Below the pieces are notes generated by a model. That model was given only the letters and a program-made list of their open reading frames with translations, searched no databases and was not told where the DNA came from. Made by a program: the position numbers and the translations under genes. A stretch of 62,938 bases of DNA, filler included, from Lenisia limosa (taxonomy: Eukaryota > Protista > Breviatea): assembly GCA_001655205.1 (NCBI GenBank). It is 12 parts of 12 records of this genome, joined end to end, with 100 filler letters (N's around TTAATTAATTAA, not from the genome) between each part and the next. Parts side by side here need not be neighbours in the genome. Positions count along the whole stretch, not along the records: positions 1 to 22,927 come from LPNZ01003166.1; positions 23,028 to 26,021 come from LPNZ01005107.1; positions 26,122 to 32,604 come from LPNZ01004759.1; positions 32,705 to 35,037 come from LPNZ01004832.1; positions 35,138 to 38,062 come from LPNZ01004724.1; positions 38,163 to 47,546 come from LPNZ01007820.1; positions 47,647 to 48,968 come from LPNZ01004130.1; positions 49,069 to 50,559 come from LPNZ01009848.1; 4 more parts are not named here. The stretch is one strand, 5' to 3'. Below, in pieces: positions 147-62,880 of this stretch (the stretch's first letter is position 1; the number at the start of each line of letters is the position of its first letter).

Positions 147-1589
147 CTCCGGTCTGAGCAGTGGCACCATGGGCAATAAGCGGGAGATAGATCTGAGACA
201 GCAAAGCATCGAGGGCCGCGAGAGGGGGGAGAGAGGCAACACCGTGATCGAATGCCGCCGACATGATGGCGATGGCTGAATGGTGATTAGGGCTTCTCTA
301 CGGTCCCAAAAAGTCGGGTTAAATATAGATATTTTCGAGGATATATTGGGAAATTCAGTTCTTTTTGGGACCGAAGGGAAGCCATAATGGTGATACTCGA
401 AACAATGCTCGGATATCATACAAGGTCCAACTTACCGTCATCGTGAACCGAAATGGTGATGGGGTCCGAATGCTGCCTCACGAAGTAGATGAGAGGGGTG
501 TCTACCTCGTCTGGAAGCTCCGCAAAGGTCTGAACCGTAAAAAGGGTTTAAACGATTCAAATAAGAACCAAATGACACCCATTTCGGTACAAACTTCCTT
601 GATAAATATTACCAGATAATTACCCTCTAACCATATGAACGGTGAGGACTTCTCTTTCAACAGTCCGGTATTTGGGTGAAGGAGGCCGAACTGGCTCAGG
701 AGTGCTGGGCTCCTAAAGTCGTAAAACGATGCAAATACCTTCATTTTCAATATTTATACATAAGCAGAATTAATCGTCTATACATAAGCAGCCTCCAAGA
801 ATTAACGTCTGCCCCAAAACACATCACATATCAATCACCTGGTTTTCACTCCCAGCGCATACCTCGTCTTCTTCATCGCCATTGCCATCCTCTGATTCAT
901 CAAGATTCTCTTCTCCTTCTAAATAGTTAAAACGATGCATATCAAGCTGCAAAAACGACGACAATTTTAGATCCCAGGTTGCAAAACCGATGAACAAAAG
1001 CCCGCTGTGATAAGAAATCTATCTCGCCACGCACCAGCATCCTCGGTACCCGAGGGTGACCCCGGGGGCGTGGGCTCTGGTACTGGCTCGGGTTCAACTG
1101 AAGTGTGAGCAGAAAGAATGCTATCATCAAGGTTATTATCTCTGTACAGAAACTCTATTCTCCTCAAAACATCCACAATAAATCCAACATAAACAATACA
1201 AAAGAGGCAAGACAGAAGGAAGGGAACTCTGAAAATTACAAACCAGGAAACCACAAATGCTCACGACCAAAATTCCCAAAAACAAAACCACAGCAACCTC
1301 CAAGGCATCCCGCACTGAAAGCCAACCCGTTGGTATTCAGCAAACATCCCCAGTTTGTATGCTCACTCTGTTCAAGGAAGGGCTGCATTTCGGGGACTGT
1401 GAAGAACTGTACTGCAGAGTAGTCCAGGGTTGCGTCAAAGAAGGAAATGAGCACATCTGAGACAGGGACTGTATCTTTTTCAATGCTAGGCCGCTTCAGG
1501 CAGTCGAAGAAGGCATTACTCTCGACGCCAAGGCCCAAGCAAACTTCGGACTGGATCCATTGCACTCTTGGGTCGTGCAATTCATCCAT
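147..1589 (-). CDS. DNAH10: Axonemal dynein heavy chain, inner-arm I1/f alpha (DNAH10-like), first six exons; gene continues off the left edge
   Basis: Exons 1589-1367, 1097-1035, 918-863, 712-632, 529-436 and 275-147 join in frame through GT-AG introns: MDELHDPRVQWIQSEVCLGLGVE...FFDATLDYSAVQFF, an acidic/Pro linker, then PPSPKYRTVEREVLTVHMTFAELPDEVDTPLIYFVR...FDHGVASLPPLAALDALLSQIYLPLI. This is colinear with the Chlamydomonas DHC1 N-terminus as I recall it (not searched). Confidence 0.75.
288..386. mobile_element. Family A MITE-like palindromic element, in a dynein intron
   Basis: TAGGGCTTCtctacGGTCCCAAAAAG...CTTTTTGGGACCgaaggGAAGCCATA; terminal inverted repeats with TA at the ends. Confidence 0.75.
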
Positions 1590-1845
1590 AATGAATTAAA
1601 ATTCAATAAACTGCAAGATTGGGGACTTTAGGGGTTTACTGCATCACAAACAAAACAATAAATCTAACAAACCGATAAGCAGGTATTAATAAAACAAACT
1701 AATATATACAGCAGAGCGTCGCTGTTAATGGGCTTTTTAGGTTGAGCAAAAAAAAAACCCAAACTAAAACCACGCAAAAGTTGCGCAGCGCGTATACTTT
1801 GAAGCCACTTTTTAAAATACAAGCCTTTTTCCAACAGATATAATC
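1590..1845. promoter_or_regulatory. Putative bidirectional promoter between dynein (-) and LysRS (+)
   Basis: Two divergent start codons (1589 and 1846) about 256 nt apart; inferred from gene layout only. Confidence 0.55.
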
Positions 1846-6003
<4,158 letters not shown>

Positions 6004-6077
6004 GTAAGCATGCGTCTTTGATACTCCGGCCATCCTGTTAAAGAACTGTTTTAACCCCATAAATTTTCAATTCGGGA

Positions 6078-6136
6078 TTAATACCTTTACTCCAACATTC
6101 TTGATTGAAATTTCCTTCATTTTACCCCCCCCCCCC
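6078..6136 (+). mobile_element. Family D intron-3'-end repeat (last LysRS intron)
   Basis: tacctttactccaacattcttgattgaaatttccttcattttacCCCC matches copies at 35157-35335 (-), 43665-43823 (+) and 57225-57290 (-). Confidence 0.7.
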
Positions 6137-8303: not shown

Positions 8304-11300
8304 CTATCCAACACCCACATTTACATCAGGGTTGTTGACGCTACCATATGCAGCCTCCCAACGGTCCAGATTCTGCGGATTTGGCTCAAAGTCTTGGTCC
8401 TGCAAATATGGTGAAATGTAATAATGAATACTTTGGCATACAGGTCACACTCCATTTACATCAATAAGTATGCTGTTGCTCTTCTCATTACAGGAGTACC
8501 GAAAACTAATTATTTTACTACCTGAAAATTCTTTCATAGAAACTGGAGGTCTGTTACCATTTACCCAACTAGGGGTGAGAAATTATGGTAGATTATTCAC
8601 CTTTCTTAGGGGTGAGAAAACAAAGTAAACATGTATAGTTGGATAGAACAAGCCCTCATAACAACACACCTGTCCTGCTCGCGAGTGTAGAAAGGCCATT
8701 GTCTGAGGAATAATAAATATTGCTTTTATTAACCAAACTGGAATATGAAACAATATAATCATCTCTCCTACAGCACCCTACCGCAAACACCACCGCTGGC
8801 ATTACATCTAAACAGGTGAATAAACCTGCATTTGGGAAGAAGAAAAAAAACATACTCCAACTTCAACAACCCTCCTTACATAAGAGAATGAATTCGGAAT
8901 CAATAACAACACCCATGACAGAGAGCATGATGTGGAGGGGGGGGGGGNNNNNNNNNNNNNNNNNNNNNNNNNNNNNNNNNNNNNNNNNNNNNNNNNNNNN
9001 NNNNNNNNNNNNNNNNNNNNNNNNNNNNNNNNNNNNNNNNNNNNNNNNNNNNNNNNNNNNNNNNNNNNNNNNNNNNNNNNNNNNNNNNNNNNNNNNNNNN
9101 NNNNNNNNNNNCAGCAATGTGCGGAGAACGTGTTCTTTGCAATCACATCCAGGAGGCAGGAGATCCAAGTCGCTTGTTTGAGCATTTGACAAAACACGTT
9201 CAAACAGTAACATGGACAATAAATACTAATGATACACTAAACCTCAAAATACAGTTTTACCATTGCCTGGACCGCTCCAGATCGGAAAGAGCCGTGTAGC
9301 CTGCAAGACGAATCTTCAGCCTCTTGTTCTCATCCTAATAACGTCAACACTACCCTAAAATAGACCACCAAAGGTGTGAATTAACACATGAAAAACCTAC
9401 GTGCATGCGGGACATTTCAGGGTTGAACTGTGACTGGCTGTTGATGTCCTGTTGGGACTTTTGCTGATCCAACAAACGATCAAGCCGACTCTGCAACCCA
9501 GAAATAACCTAAAAGATGAAATAGCATCCACATTGAAGAGAAAAAACCCTCCTCACGTCCTTGTTCTGCGTCACGGAGTCCTCAAGGTCATGGTTGCGCC
9601 GCCGGAGGTCATCGTAAATCGTATCATTTTGGCTAGCACCAGGACCTGAAAAGGAAAATAAATATCGCCCTTTCGCAAAACCAACCTCGTGAGCTTTTCA
9701 TTTCCTCCTGAGCAATGTTTTGCGATAATGTGAACGCCTGTCGCTCATTTTGAATGGTCAGATCGTGGATATTGTCAGCTGCTCGGTCAGGATGGGTGAA
9801 ATATGGACAAGTTGTTCCAAGTCTTCGTTTGAAGAATAATCAGCACATAGTAGTTTGATGTGATATTCAATTCCATACCAAGTGCTGCATTCTCAGCTTT
9901 GAGCCTTTCAACCAGAGCAAAAACTGGCTGCGTGTCCTCTAAGATATGTCTCAGACGTAAAATTTCTGCTTCCGCACTCTTAATGATTACGCTTGTTTCA
10001 ATTTCAAGAAAGAGGTAAACGGCAGGTTGTGGGTCACCTTCAGCTCGCCCTTGAGAGTGGCAGCCTCGAGTTTGGCATTCTCTGCCGACTGCTGGCTTCG
10101 GCCAAGTTCCACGGCCAATTCTCGGAGCTATGTGGTGAGCATCGGTTGTATTTGACTTTCAAAGCATCAACTTCCATCAATCCGGTCATCTTTATTCTAA
10201 TACCTCGGTTTGAAGGGGAACTGAAGGTGGAGGAGGTTGCTGACTGCGTGCACCGGGTAGAGATGTCTGTGTTATTAGATTGGGTAGAGATGTCTGTGTT
10301 ATCATAAAGAGCCAGAAAAGCTATCTGGCAGTTGAGAGACTCACCAAAGAATCCGCACCCTGCCTTTCGCGCAAATGGGCAATTTCACCTTCCAGTTCTT
10401 CAATCTGAAGTGTCACACTTGCTCAGCAGTGACTGGGCATACCTTAATCCGCATTCGACGGTTCTCAATTCGGCTCTGTTCAAGGTCAATGGCAAGAATG
10501 CCGCCGGACTGCAGGGGTGCATCAACTGCCTAGAGGTGTGAGGAACTGCCATCTGGCCGTTGTCTTGATATGGATGGCGGTGGAATCTTTTGTTCCGCAT
10601 CCACTAGCGTATATGATCATATATTATGCATATATCCCATTATCAAATCAAAATAATGAACAAAGATAGCAAAAGGGTTCATCTCGATCAGAGTTTCATC
10701 AATTATGACATAAGTGGATATGAAATGTTATATCACTACTAGGAAATTAAAGCACACATGTGAAAATGAACCAGAAAAATTAGATAAGTACCTGGGAGGT
10801 AGGAGGAGAAGGAGCAGCTTGTAATTCCTCGATTTCAGCCTTCTTTGATTCAATTTCGGCAGTCACTTCTTCAAGTCTTGCCTCCAGTGATATCTGGAAT
10901 CCGTCAAGAACATCAAATAGAACGAAAACACCAACTACAATATCTTCCTCATTTAAAAAGGACAAATAATCGTAAACCACATTTGGTCACCTTTTCATCT
11001 TTCAAAGCATTATTTTGCTCTTCTATCTCCAAGAGGCTCTGTCTGTTCTCCAGTAGATCAGCCATTGTGCGATCAACCTGAGAAGTCATTGAAATAGAAC
11101 AAAGAAACAACATTGTTAGCACTGTTAATTTATCAACATCCATGTATTGAAACAGTCCATCAGCCACCCCACATTCTCCTGTAAGTCAGTGATTGTGGTC
11201 TTTTGCTCGTCAATAGTTGCTCGCTTCTCTTCTTCAGATTGCTACGTGACATTAGTATCATTGGAATTAAAACACCATACAATATCGACACCCAAGCTGA

Positions 11301-23256: not shown

Positions 23257-23900
23257 TTTCTTTCACCCCACACCCCAAGTGACTGGCCCGGGCTTTGTTT
23301 GTTTTATTGTAATCAACCCTTGTGTGTTGTCAGCCAGCAGAGTTGATTTGGGCTTTTGTGTTTCATAAATTTCCCATTTTTACTCCCCCCCCCCCCAGGA
23401 TCTGCCACGGTGGTTTGAGGTCAGTGGAGGCAAAGTGGCTGCTATCCCTAGATGCAACTTCACACTTACTCCTTTGACTGTGGGAGGGGGATTTGCTTCA
23501 GACACGGCGCTTGGTGGTTATAACATAGCGAGGCTTGACTATGACAACACGCTGTCATAGCCTTCTTCGCCCACTCCATCCCTAGCAAGATTCCTGTTAG
23601 AATACCCAAATTGAATAATCTAAATAGCTGCATTCAAAGAGTTTAACACTATATCTCAACCCGCACCCCTCACAGTGATGAGATGTAGTGCTGCAGAAGC
23701 GACTGACCTGGGCTTTGTATGTAATGTTATCAGCCCTCATGTGTTGTCAGCCAACAGAGTTGATTTGAGCTTTATTTGTTTCATAAATTTTCCGATCACT
23801 CTCATCGCCTTAGTTTCCCAATCCAATGGCAGTGGTAATCATTGGAGGCAGTAGTGTAGATGGAATGGTTTCCGATAATCTTGTTCTCAATTGCTATTCG
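23257..23900 (+). CDS. Kelch-repeat-like protein fragment (probably continues in Ser-rich exons to about 25700)
   Basis: Exons 23399-23479 and 23814-23900 join as DLPRWFEVSGGKVAAIPRCNFTLTPLT|FPNPMAVVIIGGSSVDGMVSDNLVLNCYS, fitting the Kelch pattern W..PR..T..hhhhGG. Confidence 0.55.
23279..23398 (+). mobile_element. Family B repeat coextensive with a predicted 120-nt intron
   Basis: GTgactggcccgggctttgtttg...atcaacccttgtgtgttgtcagccagcagagttgatttgggctttt...tcataaatttcccattttactccccccccccAG. Confidence 0.75.
23672..23813 (+). mobile_element. Family B repeat ending at an acceptor
   Basis: gtgatgagatgtagtgctgcagaagcgactgacctgggctttg...tgtgttgtcagccaacagagttgatttgagc...tcataaattttcc...ttAG. Confidence 0.8.
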
Positions 23901-24819: not shown

Positions 24820-24950
24820 GAAGTCTCTATTGGTTAGCGGTCGAATTAATATTATTCTATAATTCAATATATCTTATAAGCGTGATGATTTTGACGGCTT
24901 CGGCCAGATACAACCTTTTTTTTATTTCTCATTGCTGTATATTAATAGTG
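24820..24950 (+). mobile_element. Family C repeat
   Basis: gaattaatattattctataattcaatatatcttataagcgtgatgattttgacggcttcggccagatacaacc...ttctcattgct. Confidence 0.8.
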
Positions 24951-25374
24951 GTGACTGTTTTCTCCCGTCAAAACCAAAGCATCCCCCCCCCCCAATATTT
25001 TTCCTTTCGAAAACGTTTCGAGATGGACCATTAATCTGTTTAATTGTTTAATATTTTATGGCGTAGTGGACTATTTGACATCAAGGAACTAAAATCACAA
25101 CCTATGATATGAAAAGCGCATTCTTAGCATCAATCATATGGAGAACAGATTTGACCGGAAACCCCTCTGTTATTTCTTCAAGAAAATGTCTAACCATTTC
25201 AGTACACCAACCGAAAGTCCCATCAGTACTTCAGGTCTGGAAAGGAGTTGTCTCAACACGATCCAAAAAAGATAACTAATTCAGTATTATAACTCTTATT
25301 CGTCTTCCATTAATCATTCGATATTCCACCCGTCATTAATAGTAAATGATTGGGAGTATTATTATTATTGTACT

Positions 25375-25492
25375 ATAAAGGCAAATGTTTGGTTGAATTA
25401 ATATTATACAATAATCCAGTATCTCTTATAGGTGTGATGGACGGGTTCGGCCGGATACTACCTTGTTTTATATTTCTTATTGCTATATATAC
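25375..25492 (+). mobile_element. Family C repeat
   Basis: aaggcaaatgtttggttgaattaatattatacaataatccagtatctcttataggtgtgatggacgggttcggccggatac...ttcttattgctatatata. Confidence 0.8.
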
Positions 25493-46200: not shown

Positions 46201-47483
46201 TTCTCCGCGGTGGGGAAGGAAGGGGAGGGGGGGCTATTCGAATGCGTTTGTTCCGCTGATTATGGTAATTGTCTCTCGTTCTTATGTTTAATTTAAGGCA
46301 TAATACTCTTTTACTTACGCTAAAGAGAGGAAACCCCAACTCCTACACAGGTACCCAAGACGAACTAGTTGTCCTTGGAGGTGAAGGTGACGTAACTGTC
46401 ACAAATGTAGGAAGGGAAGGATTGTTGGGTAATTACATTCCAGCGTCTGTTGTGTAATGCAATAACCTTTTAGTCGTTCATACAAGTGACCTACAACTTC
46501 GTCGTATCTAATGTAGGTAATATAGCAATGGAAAATTAGGATGTATCTGGCCGAAATCGTCCACACCATCACGCTTATAAGAGATACTGGATTACAGTGT
46601 AATTAATTCACCCAATCATTNNNNNNNNNNNNNNNNNNNNNNNNNNNNNNNNNNNNNNNNNNNNNNNNNNNNNNNNNNNNNNNNGCTTTCTGCGTGCCTC
46701 CCCAGCATACTGTTCAAATGGACTTTTTAATTTCACTCTTTATACGAGAAGCACATATTATATTATTGTAATAGTATATAGTAGTTATGATATATAGCTA
46801 TTATGATACTATTTGATATCATGATATCATGACCAAAAAGAAGTGATGTGGCATATTAAGTGTTTATAATGGTGGGTGGACCTCCGGGGGACCTTACATG
46901 GTGGGTGCGGTGAACCAAGTTTGTGCCATTATATATTTTTCACGTTTGAAGGTGACTATTGTGGCTGCGAGGAAGGTGGTCATTGACAACTCCATCATCA
47001 CCACTGACATTAATTCTGTAAGATGGAAGAGAGAGGGGGTAGTGAAAGTATTATGGTTATTGATGATGCAAGTTGCCTCTATTTATTGAAGATGAAAAAC
47101 AGTGCTTACTTACCCCTTCAGGCATATACCAATCTTGCTGTCTTCTCCATTGCCGAGGAAATGATCATTAACAACCTTCAAGTTCAGATCCTGTGGGGGG
47201 GTCAAGGAATCATATGGTAGAATTAAGGCTTCATTTCTTCAATACAAACAAAGTTGAGAATCAACGAGTATGGAGAGTATGTCGTGGTTCACCACCCAGG
47301 TCGACCTCCTTAGGAAGTGCCAGCTCCGTTACCGTTTTCTCTGCCACTCAGGCCAAACTCAATGGAACAGTTTGGGGGAATCCTGGTGACTCCATTCAGA
47401 AAGGTATGACTGATTCCCTTTAGATGCAAGCCGTAACTATCGACTTCGCTGCAGAGGATGATGCTGCATTTTACATCTCTGAT
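43259..47483 (+). CDS. Secreted or surface protein with beta-strand-rich repeats, 3'-partial (may continue beyond the linker at 47591)
   Basis: Signal-peptide-like first exon MKVSFMKLCLFLFLCSA; later exons LQFNLTARVIVLGNGGFAMNF, GLLRFPNLTLIVSQTLVVEGGGLMVF, LAVNTTALVQVNAGGEVIMEDSYFS, VTIVAARKVVIDNSIITTDINS; several N-x-S/T sequons. Confidence 0.55.
43665..43823 (+). mobile_element. Family D repeat, long form
   Basis: ggcttgtttt...tagcgttggttgctcatgtttgttattgcttg...gagtttcagtttattcggtttattacttttacgcc..cccccccccacag. Confidence 0.7.
44200..44285 (+). mobile_element. Family B repeat, internally deleted, ending at a predicted acceptor
   Basis: ttggagtgatggctgggcttcg...atcaaccttcgtgtgttgtaagccaacagagttttccaattttacctcacttAG. 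Confidence 0.75.
46520..46710 (-). mobile_element. Family C repeat, antisense to its host gene, partly in a gap
   Basis: atatagcaatgg...gtatctggccgaaatcgtccacaccatcacgcttataagagatac...cccaatcatt NNN gctttctgcgtgcctccccagcatac. Confidence 0.85.
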
Positions 47484-48118: not shown

Positions 48119-48239
48119 CATACATTCCCTCAATATTTGCCAGATTTAACCCCTTTAGTGGCTATGAGTTCAACAGAACCTATGTCAGTGGCGTGGCTCA
48201 TACTGATGCGCTGTGCTTAACAAATGGACGATCGTAGGA

Positions 48240-48360
48240 GGGGGTGGGAAAAAGCCCAAAATCAACTCTGTTGGCTGACAGCACACGAAGGTTGAGAGCA
48301 ACAAAACAAAAACAAAGCCCAGGCCAGTCGATTCTGCAGCACCACATCCCATCGCTCCAG
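48240..48360 (-). mobile_element. Family B repeat, near full length, probably antisense to its host
   Basis: Minus strand ctggagcgatgggatgtggtgctgcagaatcgactggcctgggctttg...gtgtgctgtcagccaacagagttgattttgggctttttcccacccc. Confidence 0.85.
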
Positions 48361-49069
48361 TGTACGTTAAGAGCTACTTACCTCAATGAAAGTAACGGTT
48401 TCTATTTATTCTAATAACCGTTAATTGTAAAAAAAAAAAAAAAAAAAANNNNNNNNNNNNNNNNNNNNNNNNNNNNNNNNNNNNNNNNNNNNNNNNNNNN
48501 NNNNNNNNNNNNNNNNNNNNNNNNNNNNNNNNNNTTGTTTTGTTTTTGTTTTTATCGTCTTTTACCCCTCCACCAGCATGACATTTTCATTATTTCATTT
48601 CGCTGACGCCCTTAGTTCAACAAGTAATTCGGCGATGAAATCCAAAACCGTCACAAAGCTTGGCCACTTAATTGCTCATGAAGTGGGGTAGACGTTTAAA
48701 CTTAAGCCCTAACCCTATCCCCATTACCCCCACACGTGTACACTTTGCTTTAAACGAGAGCATGGTGATACGCGGCTTGTTATCATTCACCTTATCATGT
48801 GTATATTGATACGGTCCTCTGCACTTATCCCCTCCAAAACACAACTGTACCATATATATACATATAATATGTATTTTCTCGTTAAATCGTCCGCTCCAGT
48901 TCCTTTTTTATATAAGTGGCCGAGTTTGGCCTTGACCGCGTATTTGGCCTTGACCGCGTATCTGGCCTNNNNNNNNNNNNNNNNNNNNNNNNNNNNNNNN
49001 NNNNNNNNNNNNTTAATTAATTAANNNNNNNNNNNNNNNNNNNNNNNNNNNNNNNNNNNNNNNNNNNNA

Positions 49070-49905: not shown

Positions 49906-50732
49906 GAGTATCATGTGAGTATGCATACCTTCAAAAACTATAATATTTTCAGATGATGTGGTTTTATTTCAAAAATAACCCCACACCAGGACAATCTGTT
50001 CCTCCAGGATTCTGAAGAGGGCAACCCAGTCGTCTATTTCGGTAGTTGATGCGACTCCTAAAACAATAATTGAGAAAATAAAAATGAGGGTTAATGAATT
50101 AGTATTCGTATTAGCCATTGAGATCACATTGTATATAATATAACAATGGGAAATAAAAAAATAAGGTTNNNNNNNNNNNNNNNNNNNNNNNNNNNNNNNN
50201 NNNNNNNNNNNNNNNNNNNNNNNNNNNNNNNNNNNNNNNNNNNNNNNNNNNNNNNNNNNNNNNNNNNNAGAATACGATTGGGTGGTTATAGGGCTTCAAA
50301 AGAGTCCAAAAAAGACGGGCAAAACAATATTTATCGAGGACATCGAGGAGAGAGAGAGAAAGGGTTTAGCAGGAGTAAAAATGGAAAATTATATGACACA
50401 GAAAAGTCAAAATCAACTCTGACAAAAAACACAATCTGAGTTAAAAGCAACCCTCTTACCCAGACAGAAAAGAGCGCAGAATACTGCCAATACAGCGAAA
50501 AAGGAGAAGACAATTACAGGGTTGCTGAGCCCTTGCTTCACCTGGGGAGGGGGGGGGGANNNNNNNNNNNNNNNNNNNNNNNNNNNNNNNNNNNNNNNNN
50601 NNNTTAATTAATTAANNNNNNNNNNNNNNNNNNNNNNNNNNNNNNNNNNNNNNNNNNNNGGCAATAGGGGGAGGGACCCTGGCTTTTTTATATTTCATAA
50701 TAGTCCCATTTTTATCCCCCTCTCCCCCTCAG

Positions 50733-52829
50733 AACCACACAGCAGCTTTTCGTCAACTTTGACCCTTCAATCAGCGTTCTGATCCGCGAAGCCAGGCACC
50801 TGAGTAAACTTGGTGGGAGGGGGTGTTGAAATAGCTTTGGAGAAGTGGAGTCTTTTCCTTTTTGACTTGTCATAATTTAAGATAAGGCCTTTGTTTTGAC
50901 CCCAAACAGGAGTGGAAATTCCAGAGGCAGCACTACCCATTCTCAAGCAAAGCTCAAAATTGGATGTAAGCATTTCATCATCACAACAAAATTACCTTTT
51001 CTTACTTATTTTTTTTTGTTATTATTACATCACCATCATCATCCTATCATCACCCCCCTGACCATTACAGTACTATCGGAGCCAGCTGGGACAGGTCATA
51101 AAGGAGTACGCCCGAGTCAAAGCGAACGTCTTACCTGTTATCGAGTGAGTTTTAAGGGGAAGAGTATTTCTCTTGTTAGCTGACAGAGTTGATTCTGCCG
51201 TTTTGTGGTTTAAAAGCCTACTCTTCACTCATCGACCATTCCTACCCCCGCCTCCCTGGAGTAATGGGATGCGGTGCTGNNNNNNNNNNNNNNNNNNNNN
51301 NNNNNNNNNNNNNNNNNNNNNNNNNNNNNNNNNNNNNNNNNNNNNNNNNNNNNNNNNNNNNNNNNNNNNNNNNNNNNNNNNNNNNNNNNNNNNNNNNNNN
51401 NNNNNNNNNNNNNNNNNNNNNNNNNNNTTTGTTTCTCTCTTTAGTCTATTAATTCCAAAACAGTATTTCACACCTCCAGACCCCTCCTTCAAACCGCTCT
51501 CTTGGAGCTGGAGGATCGCATCCGGCCCGGCCTGACGACATTGACGTGGACTGCTCTCAACATCGACGGGTTTCTCCATGCCGCAATCGGCACCCTCGCC
51601 GCCGTGGATGAACTGTCTTCAAAGGTTGGCCTTCAGGATCATTATTTACCCTGTGCAGAAGCGACTTGCCTGGGCTTTGTTTGTTATGTTATTATCAGCC
51701 TTGTGTGTTGTCAGCCAACAGAGTTGTTTTGTTTTTTGTCATAAATTTTCTATTTTTACTCCCCTCCCCCCAGATCCGAACCATCCTCGCGGACCGGGTA
51801 GATGTGGCTGTCCGGGGCGTCAGCAACATCACGCTCACACACTGCCCCAGGAACCTGACAACCACGGTCAACACCTTCACGCACACGCAAGATCGCGTGG
51901 TTACTCAGAGCGTCGGGGGGGAGTGAGGAGATAACTGCTAGGAGGAGGAGGCCTCCCCAGCATACCATATAATACACAATCATCCCCCCTCTCGCCGCCG
52001 CCTCACACACGTAGAGATATGATATCAGCTAATATTATAACAATGAGAAAAAAAAAAAAAATAAGGTTGTATCTGACCGTCAGAGTCCNNNNNNNNNNNN
52101 NNNNNNNNNNNNNNNNNNNNNNNNNNNNNNNNNNNNNNNNNNNNNNNNNNNNNNNNNNNNNNNNNNNNNNNNNNNNNNNNNNNNNNNNNNNNNNNNNNNN
52201 NNNNNNNNNNNNNNNNNNNNNNNNNNNNNNNNNNNNNNNNNNNNNNNNGCAGCCAACAGAGTTTAATGAGCTTTTTTTTCTTTAATAAATTATACATTCT
52301 TACTCCACCCCCCTCCCCAACTTAAACGGCCATAATCGCATGGTTTGTCACACCCGCAGCGCGGGCGTATCGAGCGATTTATTAAGGATATCAAGGACGG
52401 TCTCGACGAGGTCACTAAAGTCATCTCCGCTACCACCCTCAATAACATCGTCTTGGAACTGCCTGCGGAGGCTGGCAAGAAGGTTTGTTATGGATTGTAT
52501 TGAGAGCAGCGTAAATAATGGTAGTGATTCACCTTCATTATTATTATGATGACACTCCTGGTTCGCCATTATGATACCACGATTCAGATGGCCATACTTA
52601 CTGTTCTCTGACACAGCTCCACTATGACCCAATTATGTCGCTCTAAACTTCACGATTATCACCCTATTATGTCCCTCTAAGCTCACGGCATTATGTCGCA
52701 ACACCACCATTACTACGACCCTATTATCTTCATCGTAATGACGACCCTATTAGCTTCATCGTTATTACGACACGTTGGTTGAAGGTTCTCTCACCACTGC
52801 AATTTCATGTGCCCTGGACACCCTTCTAA
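50733..52829 (+). CDS. Axonemal outer-arm dynein heavy chain, gamma type (DNAH5/8-like), internal tail (DHC_N1 region) fragment
   Basis: QLFVNFDPSISVLIREARHLSKLGVEIPEAALPILKQSSKLDYYRSQLGQVIKEYARV...LELEDRIRPGLTTLTWTALNIDGFL...IRTILADRVDVAVRGVS, colinear with Chlamydomonas gamma DHC LFVNFD.EIL.LIREAK.L..MGIEVPESA...LRPGMITLTWTSMNIDAY as recalled. Confidence 0.88.
51653..51773 (+). mobile_element. Family B repeat forming the 3' part of dynein intron 51625-51773
   Basis: gtgcagaagcgacttgcctgggctttg...tgtgttgtcagccaacagagttg...tcataaattttctatttttactcccctccccccAG|ATCCGA (next exon in frame). Confidence 0.88.
52620..52770. repeat. Intronic imperfect tandem repeat
   Basis: Recurrent ccctattat / tatgtc.ctctaaac.tcacg / acgaccctatta.cttcatcgt units. 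Confidence 0.65.
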
Positions 52830-53770: not shown

Positions 53771-53867
53771 CTCATTGAAATAGAATAATTATAACGACGA
53801 GGTGACCCCTGAAAGAAGCCCTTGCACCACCAAAACAACTCTATTCACCACAACTTCCACAGTGCGG

Positions 53868-54687
53868 TTACTCAAGCCATTGCACAACGTGCTTGAAAAT
53901 GTCCTCACGGGTCTGAATTGGTCAATCAAAGGCAATTTTTAGGGTATTTCAAATTTTGAAATTAATACTCAAATATATGCACGGAGAGACCAAAGCCGCA
54001 CCTCCTCAGAGAGGATGAAGATCCAAATCGCTTCAAGACGCTTCCCCGACATATAATATGATCCTAATATGTATTTGTTTCCCTTGTAGTAAATCCTCTA
54101 CATACCTGTTATTAAATAAAGCCGAACATATTCAACACATATTTTCAAGAAAGCCGAACATATTATAATGCTCAAATAATTGCACGGAGAGACTAAAGCC
54201 AAACATACCTTAGTGAGGTCCTCAGGGTCTGAAGAGGAGGGGGCGTGGAGATCAGCACAATGGGCAGTTCCCTAATATGGTAAGATTAAACACGAGTTCA
54301 CTAATATGGTAAGCTTAAACAAGAGTTCCATAATAGATATTATTTTTTGTACAGCGCATGCCCGCAGTAACCACGAGGCGCCCCCTCCCCCACTTGGATA
54401 ACATGAGAAGGTCTGTTAATCTGATCAGCTGAATCAGTGATTGAGAGTTTCCTCCAGGGGTCATTGCTGCCGTTGACAAGGTACACCTTCGTGGCCTACA
54501 GAGTATTAGGCCGTGAAAAATCAAATCTGTTCTGTTTTGTCAAAGAAATTCAGTCTTTTTATTTGAACCGAAGTGAATCCCTATTTGTACACCCAGACCT
54601 GGAGGTCACGAGCGCCAGTGTGGTTATTGGTGTTGACTGTGTCCGGCTTCATGGACTTGCCGCCAAAGATGTATCCACAAAGGGCTC
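53868..54687 (-). CDS. Serine carboxypeptidase family S28 (prolylcarboxypeptidase/DPP-II-like), last four exons
   Basis: ALCGYIFGG...NTNNHTGARDLQ|ATKVYLVNGSNDPWRKLSI...VIQ|GTAHCADLHAPSSSDPEDLTK|TREDIFKHVVQWLE*; NGSxDPW and GTAHCADL are typical S28 motifs. Confidence 0.88.
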
Positions 54688-55204: not shown

Positions 55205-58200
55205 TGTTTCTCGACCTTGGGGGAGCTTCAGTACAGAATTGGGGAAGAATCTGAATAATGAAAATTTTGTTAGGAATTCAGAGGATGTGAACAGGGAAAG
55301 TTCATTATTGGATGTGAACGGGTTAGGGTTTCAAGATGTGTACATTTGATTCACAATTTATCATGAATATAAGAATTGGGCATGAACAATATCATATGCT
55401 TAATCGGACAGGGCTCACTTCGGTTCGAAAAATGACAAATATTCTCGATAATCCTCAACCACTATGTCATTTTCGAACCTAATTGAAACGCTACCACTGA
55501 CCAGGAATACTTAGCTGGGACTTCCTAAGAATTCGTTGTAGTATCATTACATATATCGATATATTATATGAAATAATAGAGACAAACAGTCAAGTAAAAC
55601 GTCCACTCTGACCTGCTCAAGTTGCCTAGGCCTCTGATGGCATTGGACCGGACTGCGATGTTTTGCGTCACAAAAGCGAGACAATGCTTACACATGTCTA
55701 AGAAGGTGTTTGGCGATATGCCTTGACCCCACCCCTCGCACGCTGCAGTGTTAACCGATGGCGGACTATCTTACGCTGACGTAAGTCCTGACATGGATAT
55801 TGACCTTTAGTCCTGACATGGATATTGACCTTAAGTCCTGACATGGATATTGGGATATTGTGATTTACCTTTAGACCCGGTCATTGTATGGCTTTTGGTG
55901 AACTAATGTGCAATCAGCTCGTATCCTCATCCGGACAGCTTTGCTCAAATCACTCTTATACTACAGGAGTAACCCCCCCCCCCACCAGTTTCGGGGTTCA
56001 GTGTTTGAGCGATGTTGGCTAGTGACNNNNNNNNNNNNNNNNNNNNNNNNNNNNNNNNNNNNNNNNNNNNNNNNNNNNNNNNNNNNNNNNNNNNNNNNNN
56101 NNNNNNNNNNNCCGCACTGAGAGAGGGGGAGTAAACAGAATCTTAAATGCAGCAGTGTGTTTAATGATAGTTTTATTTCAGTAAAAGAGGAACGTAAACA
56201 ACGACAGCAAAAATGACTATTCAAATATCGTAAATAGGTTATGAGACTTATTAAGAATAAAATTAATTCCTCTTTTGAAAATGGTTGAGCGGAGGAGAGT
56301 AAAACTGGAAAATGAATGAAACAAAACAAAATAAAAAAAAAAGCCCAAATCAACTCAATTGGCTGATAACACACAAGGGTTGTAAATTGGATGGCGAGGG
56401 GAGGTAACAACTGCTTTTGAATCGGGAAACATAATATAGAAACAAAACCCTGAGATAACACCAAGTATCAAATAGTTAGGGGCGGAGGGGGTGAAATTAG
56501 AAAATTTATGAGGCAACAAAAAGCTCAAACTCAAACAAGGGAACTTTTGATGAAGAAAATTGCGTNNNNNNNNNNNNNNNNNNNNNNNNNNNNNNNNNNN
56601 NNNNNNNNNNNNNNNNNNNNNNNNNNNNNNNNNNNNNNNNNNNNNNNNNNNNNNNNNNNNNNNNNNNNNNNNNNNNNNNNNNNNNNNNNNNNNNNNNNNN
56701 NNNNNNNNNNNNNNNNNNNNNNNNNNNNNNNNNNNNNNNNNNNNNNNNNNNNNNNNNNNNNNNNNNNNNNNNNNNNNNNNNNNNNNGACCAACCAGTCAA
56801 ACATGAGTCGTTGAATGCAGGGATAAGGGCCTGGATTGTTAGCTAGGTTTTCTGGAGGGGCGCCAAGGTGTGTGCGGAGTATGGTGATTAATTTGTTTTT
56901 ATTTCCCTATGTACTTATTCATTTCCCTAGATTATTAATGCATGTATTATTTCTCATGTTCAAACAATCTAACTGTCCACACACATTTATTGAAGATATT
57001 GGACTAGAGCACACGGTTATCGATTCACTCCTCCCCAAAATGAACCGAAAATAATACTGTGACCACCCACATCGCCAATTGCTTCGAGGATCTCCACACC
57101 CTCATTGAAGACAGGGAGAAGAACAAGAACGCCCAAGACCCTCGCAGCTGCACTGCGCTCTTCGTCGCTTTCGGACTCGATTGACGAGGCAAGTTGCGAG
57201 ACGTACAGGAAGAGGTCGAGGGGACTGGGAGGGGGTAAAACGAAAGAAATTTCGATAACAATACAGGCGTAAAGGTACAGCATTCAACAACACACCCGCC
57301 CAGCATTAACCAAACCAAAATGATTTTGTGCATATCATACGGATGTTTTTCTAGGTTATTTAGCAAGTCTTACTTTGACCCCCCCCCCCCTTTTTTTATA
57401 CCTTTTGACCCCCTTCGAAGAGGGTGTTTTCCAACGAAACACTCTCACCCCCCTCTTCCTCTAGCACCCGGCACGGACCTGAGACTTGCTGTCACCGAAG
57501 GCGGAATATGGGCGATGGTGGCTACGGCGGCGGTGCGGACCACGGAGCTATCGTCGTTGAATCCCTNNNNNNNNNNNNNNNNNNNNNNNNNNNNNNNNNN
57601 NNNNNNNNNNNNNNNNNNNNNNNNNNNNNNNNNNNNNNNNNNNNNNNGGGAGGGGGAGTGGGGAGTAATTGGATAAGGTATGAAACAAAAAAGCCGTCAA
57701 GGAAACCGATCCTGATAATTTCAGATTCCCAAAATGGTCCCAAAAAAGACTGAATATCTCGAAAAGGCTTCGAATTGCCGAAGCCCACAATGGTGACGAA
57801 ATCTTTGAATTCCGTCCAAACGTCATCGCAAATCCCAGCGGTTTCACAGGGTGTTTCCCTAGAGCAAATGATTAATAAATCTGAGCGACGTGTATCATTG
57901 TAGTGATAATAACTAATGCACACAGCTTTCTGCTTTGAGTAATAATGACTAATGCACACAACTTTCTGCCTCCCCAGTATTATTTAAATGTAAATGTATC
58001 AATTAAGGAAGAAAAATACAAATAAATCCATAGTAAAGACAGCACCCCCACTCCCACTGGTTCTCTGCTGGTCTTGATATAGAGCCAGCCAACTCCTCAA
58101 CAACACGCCAAGCGGCAACACGATTCTAATAGGAAGTTATTTGCCAAATTATTCTTGAATGTCAAAGGTCTTATTATCTAATATAAAGCAATGAGAAATA

Positions 58201-60689
58201 AAAAAATAAGGTTGTATCTGACCGAAGCCGTCCATACCATCACGCTTATAAGAGATATTGAATTATAGTATATATAATATTAATTCACCCAATCATTTGC
58301 CTTAAAACTCTTTCTGCGTGCCTCCACCGCATACTGAAGTTTTTTCAGGTTGAAGGGTATAACGGGGGGGGGGGGGGNNNNNNNNNNNNNNNNNNNNNNN
58401 NNNNNNNNNNNNNNNNNNNNNNNNNNNNNNNNNNNNNNNNNNNNNNNNNNNNNNNNNNNNNNNNNNNNNNCTCAGCTGGCAAAGGTATTCTTTCAGAAAA
58501 TTGGGTATCGATTTTGTTTGACGACTAAGTCGATTTTAAGAAAGGAGTAATAGAGGTAAAAGTGGCGTGAATAGCGTTCAATATGACGCAGTAAAGAATA
58601 GGGTGCTTCAGACATCCAAGTCAACATTCTCGCTTAAACCCTCCCCTGAAACCACGCCAATCCTACCGGCGCTTCTCCGGTAATAAAGGATCTCAATAGT
58701 GCGAGAAGTGGGGTGATGTGGGAACTGGAAGGTTATACATAGATAGGCCTTCCCTCCGATCCAGATAATGCCTGAAGTATTCAATATTCATTAATATGAG
58801 GGCTCCCTTCAATTAAAGTGAGGCATATCATTGAACTACATTTCAGACACTTTAATTTCACATTTTGTAATTTAATTTCTAAAAACAAATAATTGCACGG
58901 AGCCTTTTTCATATATTTCGATACTTTATCGATAATTTCCGTCCTTGAGTAAAGCTCTACTAAGGCTTCACTTCGGTTCGGGAAAAATATCGATAGTTTT
59001 CGAAAATTTATCGAGAAATCCAGTCTTGTTTGGAACCGAAGTGAAGCCCTATTAGTATACACGGTAAAGCGCAGATATCATCTTATATCGTTTTGAAATA
59101 GGGTAAATAGAGACAGGGCTAACTAAAGGGATAATAAAGAGACAGAAGAGAGACAAAAGAGAGACAGTACAGGGACAATAAAGGGACAATAAAGGGACAA
59201 TAAAGGGACAATAAAGGGCTGTTTGAGAGTGATGACCTAAAGGTCTTTTCAATTCCAAAAAGACCAACAAATGTCGAAATATCTCGAGAATTCAGTAATA
59301 GACAGAACCAAAGTCGAACTGAAACCCACAGGAATAGGGACGGTTGGGACTTGGCCACGGCAGCTAGTGTAGCTAGTACGGCTTCGAGCGGTACATTGTC
59401 GCACCAGTTTGACACAGTCGGTAGGGGCTTTCTGCGAGGACGTTACATTTTTGCAGAGGTATCATCATGTATATCGGTATAAGGAAGATAAGGTAGGGAA
59501 AGAATAGAATGTTGGGCAAAGAAAGTCGGAAAAAAAGAAAAAAAGTCGTAAAGATAAGAAGAAAAGACATTCCGTGACTTTTGTGAGAAATTCAGATCAA
59601 AGATCAAACCTTGCGAGTTTTGCTTGAGCTTTTGGCACCAGAGCTGCCTCGGAGTGAGCCTGGGGAATTAGGGGGAATTGTGGGGAAATTTGGCAGAATT
59701 GGANNNNNNNNNNNNNNNNNNNNNNNNNNNNNNNNNNNNNNNNNNNNNNNNNNNNNNNNNNNNNNNNNNNNNNTGGGGGGAATTAGGGGGAGATAAAATG
59801 GAACATTTATGCACACGAGGGGCCTTCGGAATAACGGGAATGACTAAAATATAACGGGAGAAATTAGGGGGCTTGCGACTGCAGACATAATTATAGGTAA
59901 TGTGACAGAAGACTATGTAGTAGTGTACTATATATAGAGTGATTGGGATAAGTCTTGACCATTTTGTTATGTGATTTCCCAAGGAAAATCGGTCAAGACA
60001 TCCCGGTCACTATAGATTATGTCACTGGGGTTGAGACTGCTGACCTTATGACTCATAATTGCGAATTAGAGACAAAATCTTTTTGATTCTTTGAAAAAAA
60101 TTCCCAAAAATCTAGAAATGAATTTGTATTTAACTTCGAAATACACACGTATATAATCAGTTCCAAGGAGTACCAAGTATCCAAACCAGTTTCAGCAATA
60201 CCCCCTCTACCACATCTTGCAAGCAAAGAACAGGCTTGTCAGCTGACAAGGTTGAGGCGTTTTCAGCCATGTGGAGCAGGAGGGAGATGAGCGAGTCGCA
60301 AGTAGGCACAATGGGAAGATGGCTAAAGCAGGGTAAATGGTGCCGAAGATGGCTGTGGCAGGGTAAATGGTGCCAACACTGAAAATTAATTGCCTCGGAT
60401 ATTCGAACAAAAAGATGTGGTTAAGGACTACTTACAGAGATAAGAAATAAAAAAAGCTGCTTTTAAGAGATAGTGGATTATTGTAAAATATGATATATCA
60501 TAGCTCGATAGATTCACTCAATCATTTTGCCTTGATGCACAGCTTCTGCCCCCCTCCCTCCCGCTCTCCGTAGCATACGGATTATTGGTGATATTAGACA
60601 GGGGACTGGTGAAGACGTTTCGAATGGCTTCTACTGGAAGAGATACCCCCACAGCAAGGACGTTGAGCACCCCTATGGAGACTGCTGGC
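55205..60689 (-). CDS. HEATR6: HEAT-repeat protein, HEATR6-like, partial at both ends
   Basis: HITPLLALLRSFITG, NDDSSVVRTAAVATIAHI, ERSAAARVLGVLVLLP, SLANIAQTL and VRSNAIRGLGNL occur in the order of recalled HEATR6 motifs (LGPLLAVLKKFMFHG, RALGVYVLFP, WSLGNLTDTL, VKSNAVRALGNL). Confidence 0.7.
55410..55493. mobile_element. Family A MITE
   Basis: agggctcacttcggttcgaaaaatgac...gtcattttcgaacctaattgaaacgcTA. Confidence 0.75.
55783..55852 (-). repeat. Three tandem 25-nt copies spanning an acceptor junction
   Basis: Minus strand (aatatccatgtcag-gact.aaggtc) twice, then aatatccatgtcAG|GACTTACGTCAG. Confidence 0.85.
56300..56400 (-). mobile_element. Family B repeat, sense to the HEATR6-like gene; another tail at about 56480-56530
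   Basis: Minus strand acccttgtgtgttatcagccaattgagttgatttgggcttttt...ttcattcattttccagttttactctcc. Confidence 0.8.
57225..57290 (-). mobile_element. Family D repeat ending at an acceptor
   Basis: Minus strand gtacctttacgcctgtattgttatcgaaatttctttcgttttaccccctcccAG|TCCCCTCGAC. Confidence 0.78.
58180..58334 (-). mobile_element. Family C repeat, full length, 5' end GTATGC at a probable donor
   Basis: Minus strand cttca|gtatgcggtggaggcacgcagaaagagttttaaggcaaatgattgggtgaatt...ggacggcttcggtcagatac...ttctcattgctttat. Confidence 0.85.
58961..59051. mobile_element. Family A MITE
   Basis: TAAGGCTTCACTTCGGTTCGGG...TTGGAACCGAAGTGAAGCCCTA. Confidence 0.88.
59168..59220. repeat. 11-nt minisatellite, about 4-5 copies
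   Basis: agggacaataa repeated. Confidence 0.9.
59930..60015. mobile_element. Family H inverted-repeat element
   Basis: agtgattgggataagtcttgacc ... ggtcaagacatcccggtcact. Confidence 0.65.
60440..60578 (-). mobile_element. Family C repeat, degenerate, starting at the donor of intron 60578-60323
   Basis: AATAATCC|gtatgctacggagagcgggagggagggggcagaagctgtgcatcaaggcaaaatgattgagtgaa; flanking exons join in frame (NNP|HLPIVPT). Confidence 0.75.
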
Positions 60690-60894: not shown

Positions 60895-60965
60895 CCCAAC
60901 AGAGTTGATTCTGGGTTTTTTTCTTGTTTCCAAAAATTTAAATTTTTAACTTCACTCCCGCTCAG
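60895..60965 (+). mobile_element. Family B repeat 3' part ending at a predicted acceptor
   Basis: caacagagttgattctgggtttttttcttgtttcc...ttttaacttcactcccgctcAG. Confidence 0.65.
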
Positions 60966-62880
60966 GTCAGCAGCACTGGTGTCAATGCTCATGGCCTCGC
61001 CGTTCTTCATGTGGCCATTGTATAGGGCTTCGATTGTCCTACATCTCTCCAACGTGGCTCTACATCTCTCGCTGATGATGCTGATCGGAAACAGTGGGTG
61101 TTTGGAAGTTTGAATATCGATCACACTAAAGCAGTGCAATCTGGACTATGATAAATTGCTGATATCCCAGAGTTTGACTTGTTCCTCGAGGACAATGGGG
61201 TCGGCCTTATCGCATTTTACTTCATCATCGCCACTTTCGTGCCGTAAGGGGGGCAATGGTAAGGCTGCAAATTCTAAAATTCTCATGATTCTTCCAATGT
61301 TTCACTTTGCTATTCTACTTTTTCAAGGATTTATCGATTGCTGCAAGTTGGCAGATGGTTTCCTCACCACCCAGACTTGGAGCGTATCGAATTGACTACA
61401 CCAAGCGACGAGAGTTCTACTTGCACTATCTTATGATGCTTGAAAATGAGTCCCTCAATCAGCAGCTCAGCGCTGCAGGGGTGGAATCGGTTGGGGGTTT
61501 CTTCTTTCTCGATAGGTCCATATTTTGGTTTTCTGGATTATTGTTTGCAATCCATATTTCAATCGCCTGCTCTTTTCATAATATTAAGCGAAGACCCTGT
61601 CCTAACCGCCTTAGAAAGACAGCAATGTGGACAGTGAGACGCGCAACTGGCTGATGGCGAATTATGCCTCCGCTGCCGAGGCTAGGAACGTCAGGAAGGG
61701 CGAAATGAATAGAAATAAATCTTGTGAGTGGGGTGACACCGAAATGTGAATTTAGTACCAAGTTGCCACTGTTCTTGTCAATGCCACTCTAATTAACGTA
61801 CGGGAATAAAAATTCAGCGTTATACATGTCATGGATTTTATTTAACACACAAAATTCTCATGTTTCAGCCAACTTGAAACACACTCCATCCGTGAGTCTT
61901 CAGCCATTACAGGTGAGAGAGCTAATCTGTATTTGTTTTCGTGTGTTACACTCATGCTTACGATAAAAGTTGATCCCTTAACTCAGATTTTTTTGATGAA
62001 ACCATGTTCTATGTTAAAAGTTGTCCATGATATTTCCTTCAGTACTCGTCTCACACTGCTAACGAAAATGTGAAACTGCTGGTACCGGGCCTTTTGAGCT
62101 TCTCTAATACGGTGAGGGTTACAGCCGTCAGGGTAATAGATTATGTATTAGGCGCATAGTACATAAATATGTTTACACAACATACTAATACATATGATAT
62201 TATATCACTATATATCATATATATGTATAATATATGATATATTATATGATATGTATGGATAGTATATGCATATATATCATGTGTATTATATTAGGCAGGT
62301 ACAGAGTTTATTGTTTAATCCCGTACTGGTGCGAATTAGTAACTGGTTATTACTACCTTTCTTCGTGTTTTACTTTTAATCTGTTTAGGTCATGGAAATC
62401 GCTAATCTCGAGCCTAAAAACGTGTTGAAAATTGTGGTATGAAAAGGTTATATTCTTCAAATTTTGCGTCTTCACTAATACTGCTACTATTCCATTTTTT
62501 CTCCTGTGCTTTCCCTCTTTCTTTGCTCTTTTCACTGGCTCCAGGGAATGTACATCATTGACGAACACCACAATTTGCTGAGCGAGTTTAACCTCTGGTG
62601 GGTGGGTGTGGCCCAATGTTTATGTTTGGGTCTCAAATTGCACCACAGAGTTGATCACATTTATTTTTAAATTTCATACACCTTAATACTGCGTATATTG
62701 TATCTCGATATATGTTCCAGTTCTTATTTTGCTGTTTATTTACCGAATAGTCCTGAGGTCTTCGAGAAATGGCTTGATTCGATTGAGAAACTCTACACCA
62801 GCGTCAACCCTTACCACAACGCCACGCATGCGGCTGATGTGCTATGTACAATGTCCTTCCTTGTCACTTCGGTTCCAAAG
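60966..62880 (+). CDS. Class I cyclic-nucleotide phosphodiesterase with probable upstream transmembrane segment(s), partial at both ends
   Basis: Exon 62751-62880 encodes EVFEKWLDSIEKLYTSVNPYHNATHAADVLCTM (class I PDE YHN..HAADV). Upstream exons encode GVGLIAFYFIIATFVP and DSETRNWLMANY; linkage of all exons into one gene is inferred. Confidence 0.85.

What the first reader, a model, noticed from the sequence alone, without database searches (positions are those of the whole stretch)
288..62680. Introns of unrelated genes are built from shared repeat modules placed at splice sites (candidate intron-building mobile system)
Seen: dynein, LysRS, ankyrin, Kelch, ABHD, S28, HEATR6-like and PDE introns reuse the same few non-coding modules. 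Family C begins with GTATGC exactly at three donors (16487, 58334, 60578). Families B and D end in ..TTTAC-polyC-AG at or just before roughly ten acceptors. TA-flanked MITEs (A, H) and family F fill intron interiors. Established: Introner elements in Micromonas and Aureococcus, and introner-like elements in Dothideomycete fungi, are repeats that create introns by carrying splice sites. Inference: this genome hosts a similar system, but split into separate 5'-donor and 3'-acceptor modules, or a decayed intron-generating family, or intron ends homogenised by gene conversion. I do not recognise these families.
Basis: partly seen in the sequence, partly recalled or inferred. Interest (0 to 1): 0.8.

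Follow-up and report, generated by a model that had tools for sequence, protein, structure and literature searches.

The report
Mobile repeats hugging old intron ends
Several short repeats sit inside the introns of an intron-rich microbial eukaryote, mostly in the gene's direction and often at intron ends; they likely jumped into introns that already existed rather than building them, and one family likely now supplies the acceptor splice signal.

Summary
The repeats are real (A 24, B 13+, C 18, D 4, F 4-6 copies), about 85% alike, and abundant in a matching DNA run. The 'intron-building' reading fails both direct tests. The C-bearing intron at 16487 has nine paralogous introns without C. The position of the D-bearing LysRS intron is shared with 21 distinct eukaryote loci that lack all modules. 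No intron is a whole B, C or D copy. GTATGC is the joint-commonest donor here (7 of 105 modelled introns). The donor claimed at 58334 is likely inside an intron, and the same C head occurs antisense at 46710 and 51965. A is a randomly oriented MITE with an 8-bp duplication (hAT-like), not TA-flanked. A real residue remains. B and C are sense-biased (13:1 and 12:2 introns; A 8:12 copies). B's 3' end lies at acceptors in 6 of 10 measurable introns (1.5 expected). Full B is intron-shaped (GTACGC head, C-run-AG tail). Best reading: secondary insertion at C-rich tracts plus selection. Main rival: remnants of an Introner-like family, as in Micromonas. No B, C or D junction was confirmed by RNA.

The parts
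288..386 (+). Family A: 99-bp TIR MITE with a perfect 8-bp target duplication; intron interior
4370..4460 (+). Family A in the interior of LysRS intron 4347-4510; the downstream exon is seen as an RNA contig piece
5130..5662 (.). Element H: single copy with TIRs of about 58 bp, TA outside both ends; interior of LysRS intron 5043-5686
6066..6136 (+). D tail ending in a C-run at a gap, in LysRS intron 6004, whose position is shared with 21 distinct eukaryote loci
10599..10786 (-). Family G copy starting 5 nt after the RNA-confirmed donor of intron 10791-10530; ends 69 nt short of the acceptor
16487..16691 (+). Intron with C (body about 16500-16632) next to a GTATGC donor; nine paralogous introns of 36-82 nt lack C
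23277..23398 (+). B, 5'-truncated, ending C-run-AG at an acceptor; C-rich tract just upstream
23672..23813 (+). B with a decayed head, ending at the acceptor of intron 23480-23813
24836..25915 (+). Four C copies, two of them head-to-tail, outside any gene model
35159..35337 (-). D ending at a likely acceptor (35157)
35391..35548 (-). Near full-length C, intron interior, sense
36275..36370 (-). B ending at an acceptor
43630..43822 (+). D starting at a donor with a B-like head and ending C-run-AG inside the intron
43854..44029 (+). Likely full-length B across a 123-N gap: GTACGC head inside the intron, tail at the acceptor of intron 43630-44029
44194..44279 (+). Internally deleted B: head 45 nt after the donor, tail 15 nt before the acceptor
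46515..46710 (-). C with GTATGC head, antisense, inside an intron of a + strand gene
48234..48365 (-). B antisense, with its C-run end on the donor of intron 48234-48576
50671..50732 (+). B tail at a dynein acceptor (the next exon matches DHC_N1)
51650..51773 (+). B filling most of dynein intron 51625-51773 and ending at the acceptor; head absent
51945..52088 (-). C tail followed by a C head, antisense, in a dynein intron
57225..57321 (-). D tail at an acceptor before a HEAT-like exon
58178..58334 (-). Full-length C with GTATGC head, likely interior of intron 58666-58126
60455..60578 (-). C starting at or just after the frame-supported donor 60578
60896..60965 (+). B tail ending at an acceptor
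54162..54206 (-). F-like copy starting 2 nt after the donor of S28 intron 54208-53913; a second copy lies inside the same intron

Best explanation
These repeats are likely non-autonomous mobile elements that inserted into introns that already existed, and the C-run end of family B likely became, or merged with, the acceptor of several of those introns. Shown: A is a TIR element with an 8-bp target duplication and random orientation; H is a TIR element with TA outside both ends. Shown: B, C and D lack a detectable target duplication (tested for B and C), are often 5'-truncated or head-to-tail, and lie mostly in the gene's direction. Inferred: B prefers, or is captured at, C-rich pyrimidine tracts. 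Sense copies therefore end at acceptors and the few antisense copies end at the G-runs after donors. Inferred: selection then keeps sense copies whose AG coincides with the exon boundary and purges AG-bearing copies in intron interiors, where the surviving tails mostly end YAA. It would also purge A-rich antisense copies. The modules lengthen and re-dress old introns; they do not make new ones in this window.
For: Intron 16487 is one of 10 paralogous introns in a repeated coiled-coil gene; the other nine are 36-82 nt and lack C. LysRS intron 6004, which carries the D tail, has the same position in 27 of 32 pattern hits (21 distinct loci). In 17 of these the next exon was found, and none carries A, B, C, D or F. 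No intron matches B, C or D at both ends, and none of the six B heads with a body is at a donor. GTATGC opens 7 of 105 modelled introns and 2 of 15 RNA-confirmed introns, those two without C. A: 8-bp flank identity 0.45 against 0.31 for shuffled pairings, p=0.0066, 12 of 24 copies usable; orientation 8 sense to 12 antisense. The 15 nt upstream of B 5' ends hold 5.4 C against 2.9 in background, p about 1e-4, 14 of 17 copies. Interior and near-acceptor B tails mostly end YAA, acceptor ones YAG. Precedent for target-driven insertion at 3' splice sites: 4 of 14 NF1 Alu insertions hit the AG or the polypyrimidine tract (PMC3219598, passages).
Against: No target duplication was found for B (12 copies) or C (15 copies), so the mechanism of mobility is unknown and a retro-type target model lacks its usual mark. 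AATAAA is only modestly commoner on the antisense strand (B 4 against 1 of 17; C 5 against 2 of 18), weak support for selection as the cause of the strand bias. B, C and D share a donor-like GTAYGC head and B ends like an acceptor, which an ordinary transposon need not do. F and G also keep one orientation and start at donors. C6+ runs outside B/D are followed by AG in only 12 of 30 cases, so B may carry its own acceptor. Three other LysRS intron positions (4820, 5043, 5805) are not shared in the loci that covered them, so lineage-specific intron gain did occur by some route. The distance cut-offs (16 and 36 nt) were chosen after seeing the data.
Confidence: 0.55

Rival explanations
1. B and D (perhaps C, F and G too) are remnants of intron-shaped Introner-like elements that move at the pre-mRNA stage. 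They land in sense orientation in unspliced transcripts, including at or next to existing splice junctions. Inner splice ends decay and outer ends survive, which leaves heads at donors and tails at acceptors. Whole-intron copies would exist elsewhere in the genome.
For: Full B runs from a GTACGC head to C-run-AG (43854-44029), and D at 43630 runs from a donor to C-run-AG. Sense bias is 13:1 (p=0.002) and 12:2 (p=0.013) against A 8:12 (Fisher p=4e-4). Twenty X1 contigs continue the tail C-run with a consensus beginning CCAGG, agreement 0.39. Micromonas IEs are sense-only, leave 463 remnants outside or inside pre-existing introns, 32 in conserved introns, and form merged copies (PMC3879977, passages).
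Against: No whole-intron copy occurs among the 14 introns holding a core B copy, whereas Micromonas remnants accompany an IE class that makes up over half of all introns. No B head has an AG directly before it, as insertion at an acceptor junction predicts. Antisense and extragenic copies exist. The copies are old (at most 93-95% alike).
Confidence: 0.3
2. The positional and strand patterns are partly an artefact. The repeat-rich part is a concatenation of small contigs that break at repeats and G/C runs. Tail profiles favour pyrimidine tracts, and exon ends were set by reading frame rather than by RNA.
For: Eleven 100-base linker gaps; 16 of 44 gaps edged by G/C runs. Repeat cover is 15% against 2.5%. 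No B, C or D junction was seen in RNA.
Against: The statistics used only copies with B's diagnostic core or head (17 copies), not bare tails. Host strands come from open spliced frames and Pfam/PDB hits. A, in the same contigs, shows no strand bias.
Confidence: 0.06
3. Intron ends are homogenised by gene conversion between unrelated genes.
For: Shared sequence lies near intron ends and mostly in one orientation.
Against: Copies have discrete ends and occur antisense, in tandem and outside genes. A has target duplications. Short introns in the first 22.9 kb mostly lack the modules.
Confidence: 0.05
4. One reading: separate 5'-donor (C) and 3'-acceptor (B, D) modules build new introns.
For: C starts at 2 frame-supported donors; B and D end at about 9 acceptors.
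Against: No intron in my curated set has C at its donor and B or D at its acceptor. Both datable introns predate their module. B and D have heads of their own. GTATGC is a common host donor.
Confidence: 0.04

Closest known systems
Introner elements / introner-like elements (PMC9860276 passages and section 15; PMC12130899 passages; bioRxiv 10.1101/2020.10.14.339549 passages)
   Same: Short non-coding repeats in introns of unrelated genes, carrying splice-site-like ends, with an orientation bias.
   Different: These surveys require similarity reaching near both intron boundaries and exclude secondary insertion into existing introns. No intron here meets that, and the two datable host introns are old.
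Micromonas IE-A remnants and merged IEs (PMC3879977, passages)
   Same: Partial, degenerate copies inside pre-existing and conserved introns and near genes; merged copies; parent family in sense orientation.
   Different: There the remnants have lost both splice sites and accompany an IE class that makes up over half of all introns. Here B tails still form acceptors, no whole-intron copy was seen, and antisense copies exist.
L1-endonuclease-dependent Alu insertions at 3' splice sites (NF1; PMC3219598, passages)
   Same: A target preference that coincides with the pyrimidine tract puts elements at acceptors; 5' truncation occurs.
   Different: Those insertions carry poly(A) tails and target duplications and disrupt splicing. 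B ends in a C-run, shows no duplication and appears tolerated.
hAT-type MITEs (family A) and Tc1/mariner-type MITEs (H); superfamily rules recalled, seen only as a listing
   Same: TIRs with an 8-bp (A) or TA (H) target duplication, and no coding capacity.
   Different: No partner transposase was found in the window or searched for genome-wide.

Membership tests
Introner (B, C, D) | Repeat similarity reaches near both the donor and the acceptor of the same intron | tested here: not met
   None of the curated introns with B, C or D; B heads interior in 6 of 6
Introner (B, C, D) | Host intron position is new (absent from paralogs and orthologs) | tested here: not met
   2 of 2 testable: intron 16487 is shared with 9 paralogs; intron 6004 with 21 distinct loci
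Introner (B, C, D) | Element carries or co-opts splice sites | tested here: inconclusive
   B ends on AG at 7 modelled acceptors and has a GT head; it is unresolved whether the AG is the element's or the host's; no RNA junction
Introner (B, C, D) | Sense-orientation bias in genes | tested here: met
   B 13:1 and C 12:2 introns
Introner (B, C, D) | Whole-intron copies elsewhere in the genome | not testable with these tools
   No genome is held
hAT-type MITE (A) | Terminal inverted repeats, no ORF, about 100 bp | tested here: met
hAT-type MITE (A) | 8-bp target site duplication | tested here: met
   8/8 at 288, 7/8 at 31906, 6/8 at 30743 and 41892; p=0.0066 at k=8, one of 11 lengths tried, so marginal after correction; 12 of 24 copies usable
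hAT-type MITE (A) | Matching autonomous transposase element | not testable with these tools
   No genome is held
SINE / non-LTR retroposon (B, C) | Variable-length target duplication | tested here: not met
   No excess over shuffled pairings, B 12 copies and C 15 copies. One suggestive 10-11 nt repeat around C at 16487 was not tested on its own
SINE / non-LTR retroposon (B, C) | 5' truncation with a shared 3' end and a simple tail | tested here: inconclusive
   Many copies lack the head and share the 3' end; asymmetry not tested statistically; C ends in TA repeats, B in a C-run
SINE / structured RNA (B, C) | Derived from a known RNA family or with covarying structure | tested here: not met
   No Rfam match over B or C; 0 compensatory pairs in 12 and 11 predicted
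Helitron-type (B, C) | No TSD, head-to-tail copies, 3' hairpin plus CTRR end | tested here: inconclusive
   No TSD and tandem copies are seen; no conserved hairpin; terminal rule recalled

The most novel reading that the evidence does not exclude
B/D is an intron-shaped mobile element (GT head, C-run-AG tail) that homes to existing exon-intron boundaries and takes over the acceptor of old introns, with its antisense copies landing on donors. It would be a splice-site-replacing parasite that rewrites a genome's splice signals without changing intron positions, and it may be the source of this lineage's C-run acceptors and G-run donors.
Probability: 0.2. Interest if true: 0.72.

Novelty: new variant of a known kind. 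Interest (0 to 1): 0.38.

Why it matters
On the best reading this is transposon litter in the introns of an unstudied protist, with one twist: a family whose end is tolerated at acceptors, or has become them. Introner surveys deliberately discard one-ended similarity (PMC9860276, section 15), so such elements would be invisible to them. If B targets and replaces splice sites, it offers a testable route by which splice-signal sequence turns over at conserved intron positions. The case also warns that GT/AG-looking repeat ends in a fragmented assembly do not show intron creation.

Tried and rejected
No whole genome is held. Exact B-core and C-core patterns found nothing in metagenome and viral contigs. 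No look-alikes among earlier findings by place or by sequence. RNA evidence covers only 1-20000: 15 of 90 joints were shown, all in a gene without B, C or D. The coiled-coil gene holding C had almost no RNA cover, and the LysRS contig ends before the D intron, so neither junction could be judged. The stretch 38163-47546 has no RNA result. Homolog searches with a HEAT exon and a dynein exon gave no orthologs. The representative search gave the window's own ORF and three unrelated HEAT/TPR proteins that did not help place exons. PDB searches placed one dynein exon but not two others. My DP gene finder was reliable for the first 22.9 kb but noisy after it, so later introns were curated by hand and checked for open frame. 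Two of those models failed as entered: HEAT N2, and HEAT C2, where I tried wrong donors. The last dynein exon was off by one base. Rejected: TA as A's duplication; a TIR for B (only a 12-of-15 gapped match in one head); snoRNA or structured RNA; G-run/C-run pairing of intron ends (0 of 105 introns have both). A literature check of the human LysRS intron found nothing. Searches for an earlier description of such end-biased intronic repeats gave only the NF1 and merle-type analogues; the library lacks most subscription papers.
Full report
Setting. The window comes from an intron-rich eukaryote with outer-arm-type dynein. Its LysRS exon has no relative above 80% identity, and I did not place it further. 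No genome is held. One DNA-like run (X1) and one poly(A) metatranscriptome (X2) of the same study hold the DNA. The window has 44 gaps; 11 are 100-base spacers with a stop linker and 16 are edged by G/C runs. Gene fragments change across the linkers, so the part after 22.9 kb is likely a string of small contigs. It holds 15% repeat against 2.5% before.

The repeats are real. Self-BLAST and nhmmer give A 24, B 13, C 18, D 4 and F 4 hits, plus B tail fragments and the small families G, J and K. Median identity among 8-9 chosen copies per family is 84-87%, with maxima of 93-95%. X1 laid 2024 contigs on 1-20000, with summed depth 5507 over A, 11161 over C and 1366 over the D/B tail, against about 35-50 elsewhere. 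That shows abundance, not copy number. Rfam gives no match over B or C, and their alignments show no compensatory pair.

A and H are ordinary DNA-type MITEs. A is a 99-bp TIR element. In the 12 of 24 copies with both ends, the flanks outside the terminal TA match best at 8 bp: 0.45 against 0.31 shuffled, p=0.0066, one of 11 lengths tried; 8/8 at 288 and 7/8 at 31906. The TA therefore belongs to the TIR, and the element is hAT-like (rule recalled). Its orientation in genes is 8 sense to 12 antisense, with 2 outside. H is a single TIR element with TA outside both ends. RNA contig pieces show the exons after the A-bearing intron and on both sides of the H-bearing intron of LysRS.

B, C and D are not separate donor and acceptor parts. 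B has its own head, and the likely full copy 43854-44029 runs from GTACGC to C-run-AG. All six heads with a body are interior. D at 43630 begins with a B-like head at a donor and ends inside the intron; the flanking exons join in frame across D plus B. The C head matches the B head at 10 of 11 bases. It sits at frame-supported donors at 16487 and 60578, but also antisense at 46710 and 51965. At 58334 the neighbouring exons join in frame without it; an extra exon across the gap there is not excluded. GTATGC is the joint-commonest donor, 7 of 105 modelled introns and 2 of 15 RNA-confirmed introns, those two free of C. Five C copies lie outside gene models. Neither B (12 copies) nor C (15 copies) shows target duplications above shuffled pairings. 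Head-to-tail copies occur in the window and in X1.

The host introns are older than the modules where this could be tested. The intron at 16487 is one of ten at the same place in the repeat units of a coiled-coil gene. The other nine are 36-82 nt without C, and one of them also opens with GTATGC; removing C leaves about 60-70 nt. For the D-bearing LysRS intron at 6004, a pattern scan of metagenome contigs gave 32 loci. Of these, 27 (21 distinct) are LysRS with GT at the same codon boundary, 17 show the next exon, and none holds any module. The pattern demands GT, so it shows that the position is shared, not how often. Against a purely ancestral picture, three other positions (4820, 5043, 5805) were uninterrupted in the loci that covered them, 16 of 21 for 5043.

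What remains non-random. Of 17 B copies with the diagnostic core or head, 16 are sense (13:1 by intron, p=0.002). C is 12:2 (p=0.013), and both differ from A (Fisher p=4e-4). B's 3' end lies within 16 nt of the AG in 6 of 10 introns with a usable length, against 1.5 expected (p=2.5e-4). Three sense introns were left out because gaps or contig ends hide their length, and two of those are also at acceptors. C starts within 36 nt of a donor in 5 of 10 introns against 2.3 expected (p=0.047); two were left out. Both cut-offs were set after seeing the data. The two clear antisense B copies end at or about 20 nt from donors. The 15 nt before B's 5' ends are C-rich (5.4 against 2.9, 14 of 17 copies). 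Acceptor tails end YAG and most others end YAA. F (6 copies) and G (2 copies) also keep one orientation relative to the gene; two F copies and one G copy start within 8 nt of donors, the G donor being RNA-confirmed. G-runs after donors are a host habit (GT within 10 nt before the run in 25 of 34 runs outside B/D), while C6+ runs outside B/D precede AG in only 12 of 30.

Mechanism. The simplest account is secondary insertion, with a preference for or capture at C-rich tracts, filtered by splicing. A sense copy whose AG falls at the exon boundary is harmless, while one with AG in mid-intron would exonise DNA and be lost. These steps are inferred; the mobilising enzyme is unknown. Insertion at 3' splice sites through target preference has precedent in NF1 (PMC3219598, passages). 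The serious rival is decay of an intron-shaped element that moves at the pre-mRNA stage. Micromonas IEs are sense-only and leave remnants in conserved introns and merged copies (PMC3879977, passages). Here, though, no whole-intron copy was seen, and no B head follows an AG.

Membership and novelty. Introner surveys require similarity near both boundaries and exclude secondary insertion (PMC9860276, section 15 read, other passages; bioRxiv 10.1101/2020.10.14.339549, passages). B, C and D fail that test, though B works partly like an Introner in supplying an acceptor-like end. About 72% of known introner families are unclassified (PMC12130899, passages), so lack of a TSD does not exclude kinship. 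PMC11282704 was seen as passages. Searches for a prior description of end-biased, non-creating intronic repeats found only the analogues above. Supplements of these papers were not read, and those of PMC3879977 (figures S16-S17 on nested IEs) may bear on the rival.

Verdict. The sense and acceptor bias of B is real in modelled introns but lacks RNA confirmation. Interest 0.38; the novel case, a splice-site-replacing element, has probability 0.2.

Noticed in passing
window:22928-60789: Eleven gaps of exactly 100 bases hold a 12-base all-frame stop linker, and gene fragments change across them. They are likely artificial joins, so gene neighbourhoods in this part mean nothing.
   Followed up: partly
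window:24308, 27023, 27762, 44149, 52829 and others: Many donors are followed by G-runs of 6-13 bases, some followed by TYAAA. That is the reverse complement of the T-rich C-run ending of B/D tails, so some G-run donors might be minimal antisense tails. Weak and untested.
   Followed up: partly
window:43817, 50421, 51182, 60896, 62645: Several truncated B copies start at the same internal CAG of B, after a pyrimidine-rich stretch that itself looks like an acceptor. This may be a breakpoint hotspot or only the best-conserved part of the profile.
   Followed up: no
window:12800-22927: A very long coiled-coil gene with ankyrin repeats at its start is built of tandem exon pairs with conserved intron positions; it has almost no cover in RNA run X2.
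   Followed up: partly
window:10599-10786 and 42255-42455: Family G, about 190 bp, two copies in the same orientation relative to the gene; one fills most of an RNA-confirmed intron.
   Followed up: partly
window:26273-26344 and 59930-60018: A small hairpin-like repeat (family K) with internal inverted repeats, two copies.
   Followed up: no
window:713-862 and 919 onward, minus strand: Two neighbouring introns of the first gene have similar last 25 bases, and intron 862 opens with a B/C-like head but has no B or C body.
   Followed up: no
window:43169-48968: Plus-strand exons of a likely surface protein, ending in an exon with a zinc-protease-like HE motif split by an intron (motif recalled; no Pfam hit).
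   Followed up: partly
window:38163-42900 and 55161-60689, minus strand: Two HEAT-repeat gene fragments that may be parts of one HEATR6-like gene placed apart by contig concatenation (label recalled; only weak HEAT/Arm hits).
   Followed up: partly
window:1846-6136: LysRS has about 20 introns; three of the four positions checked are absent from the other eukaryote loci fetched, which hints at lineage-specific intron gain by an older process.
   Followed up: partly
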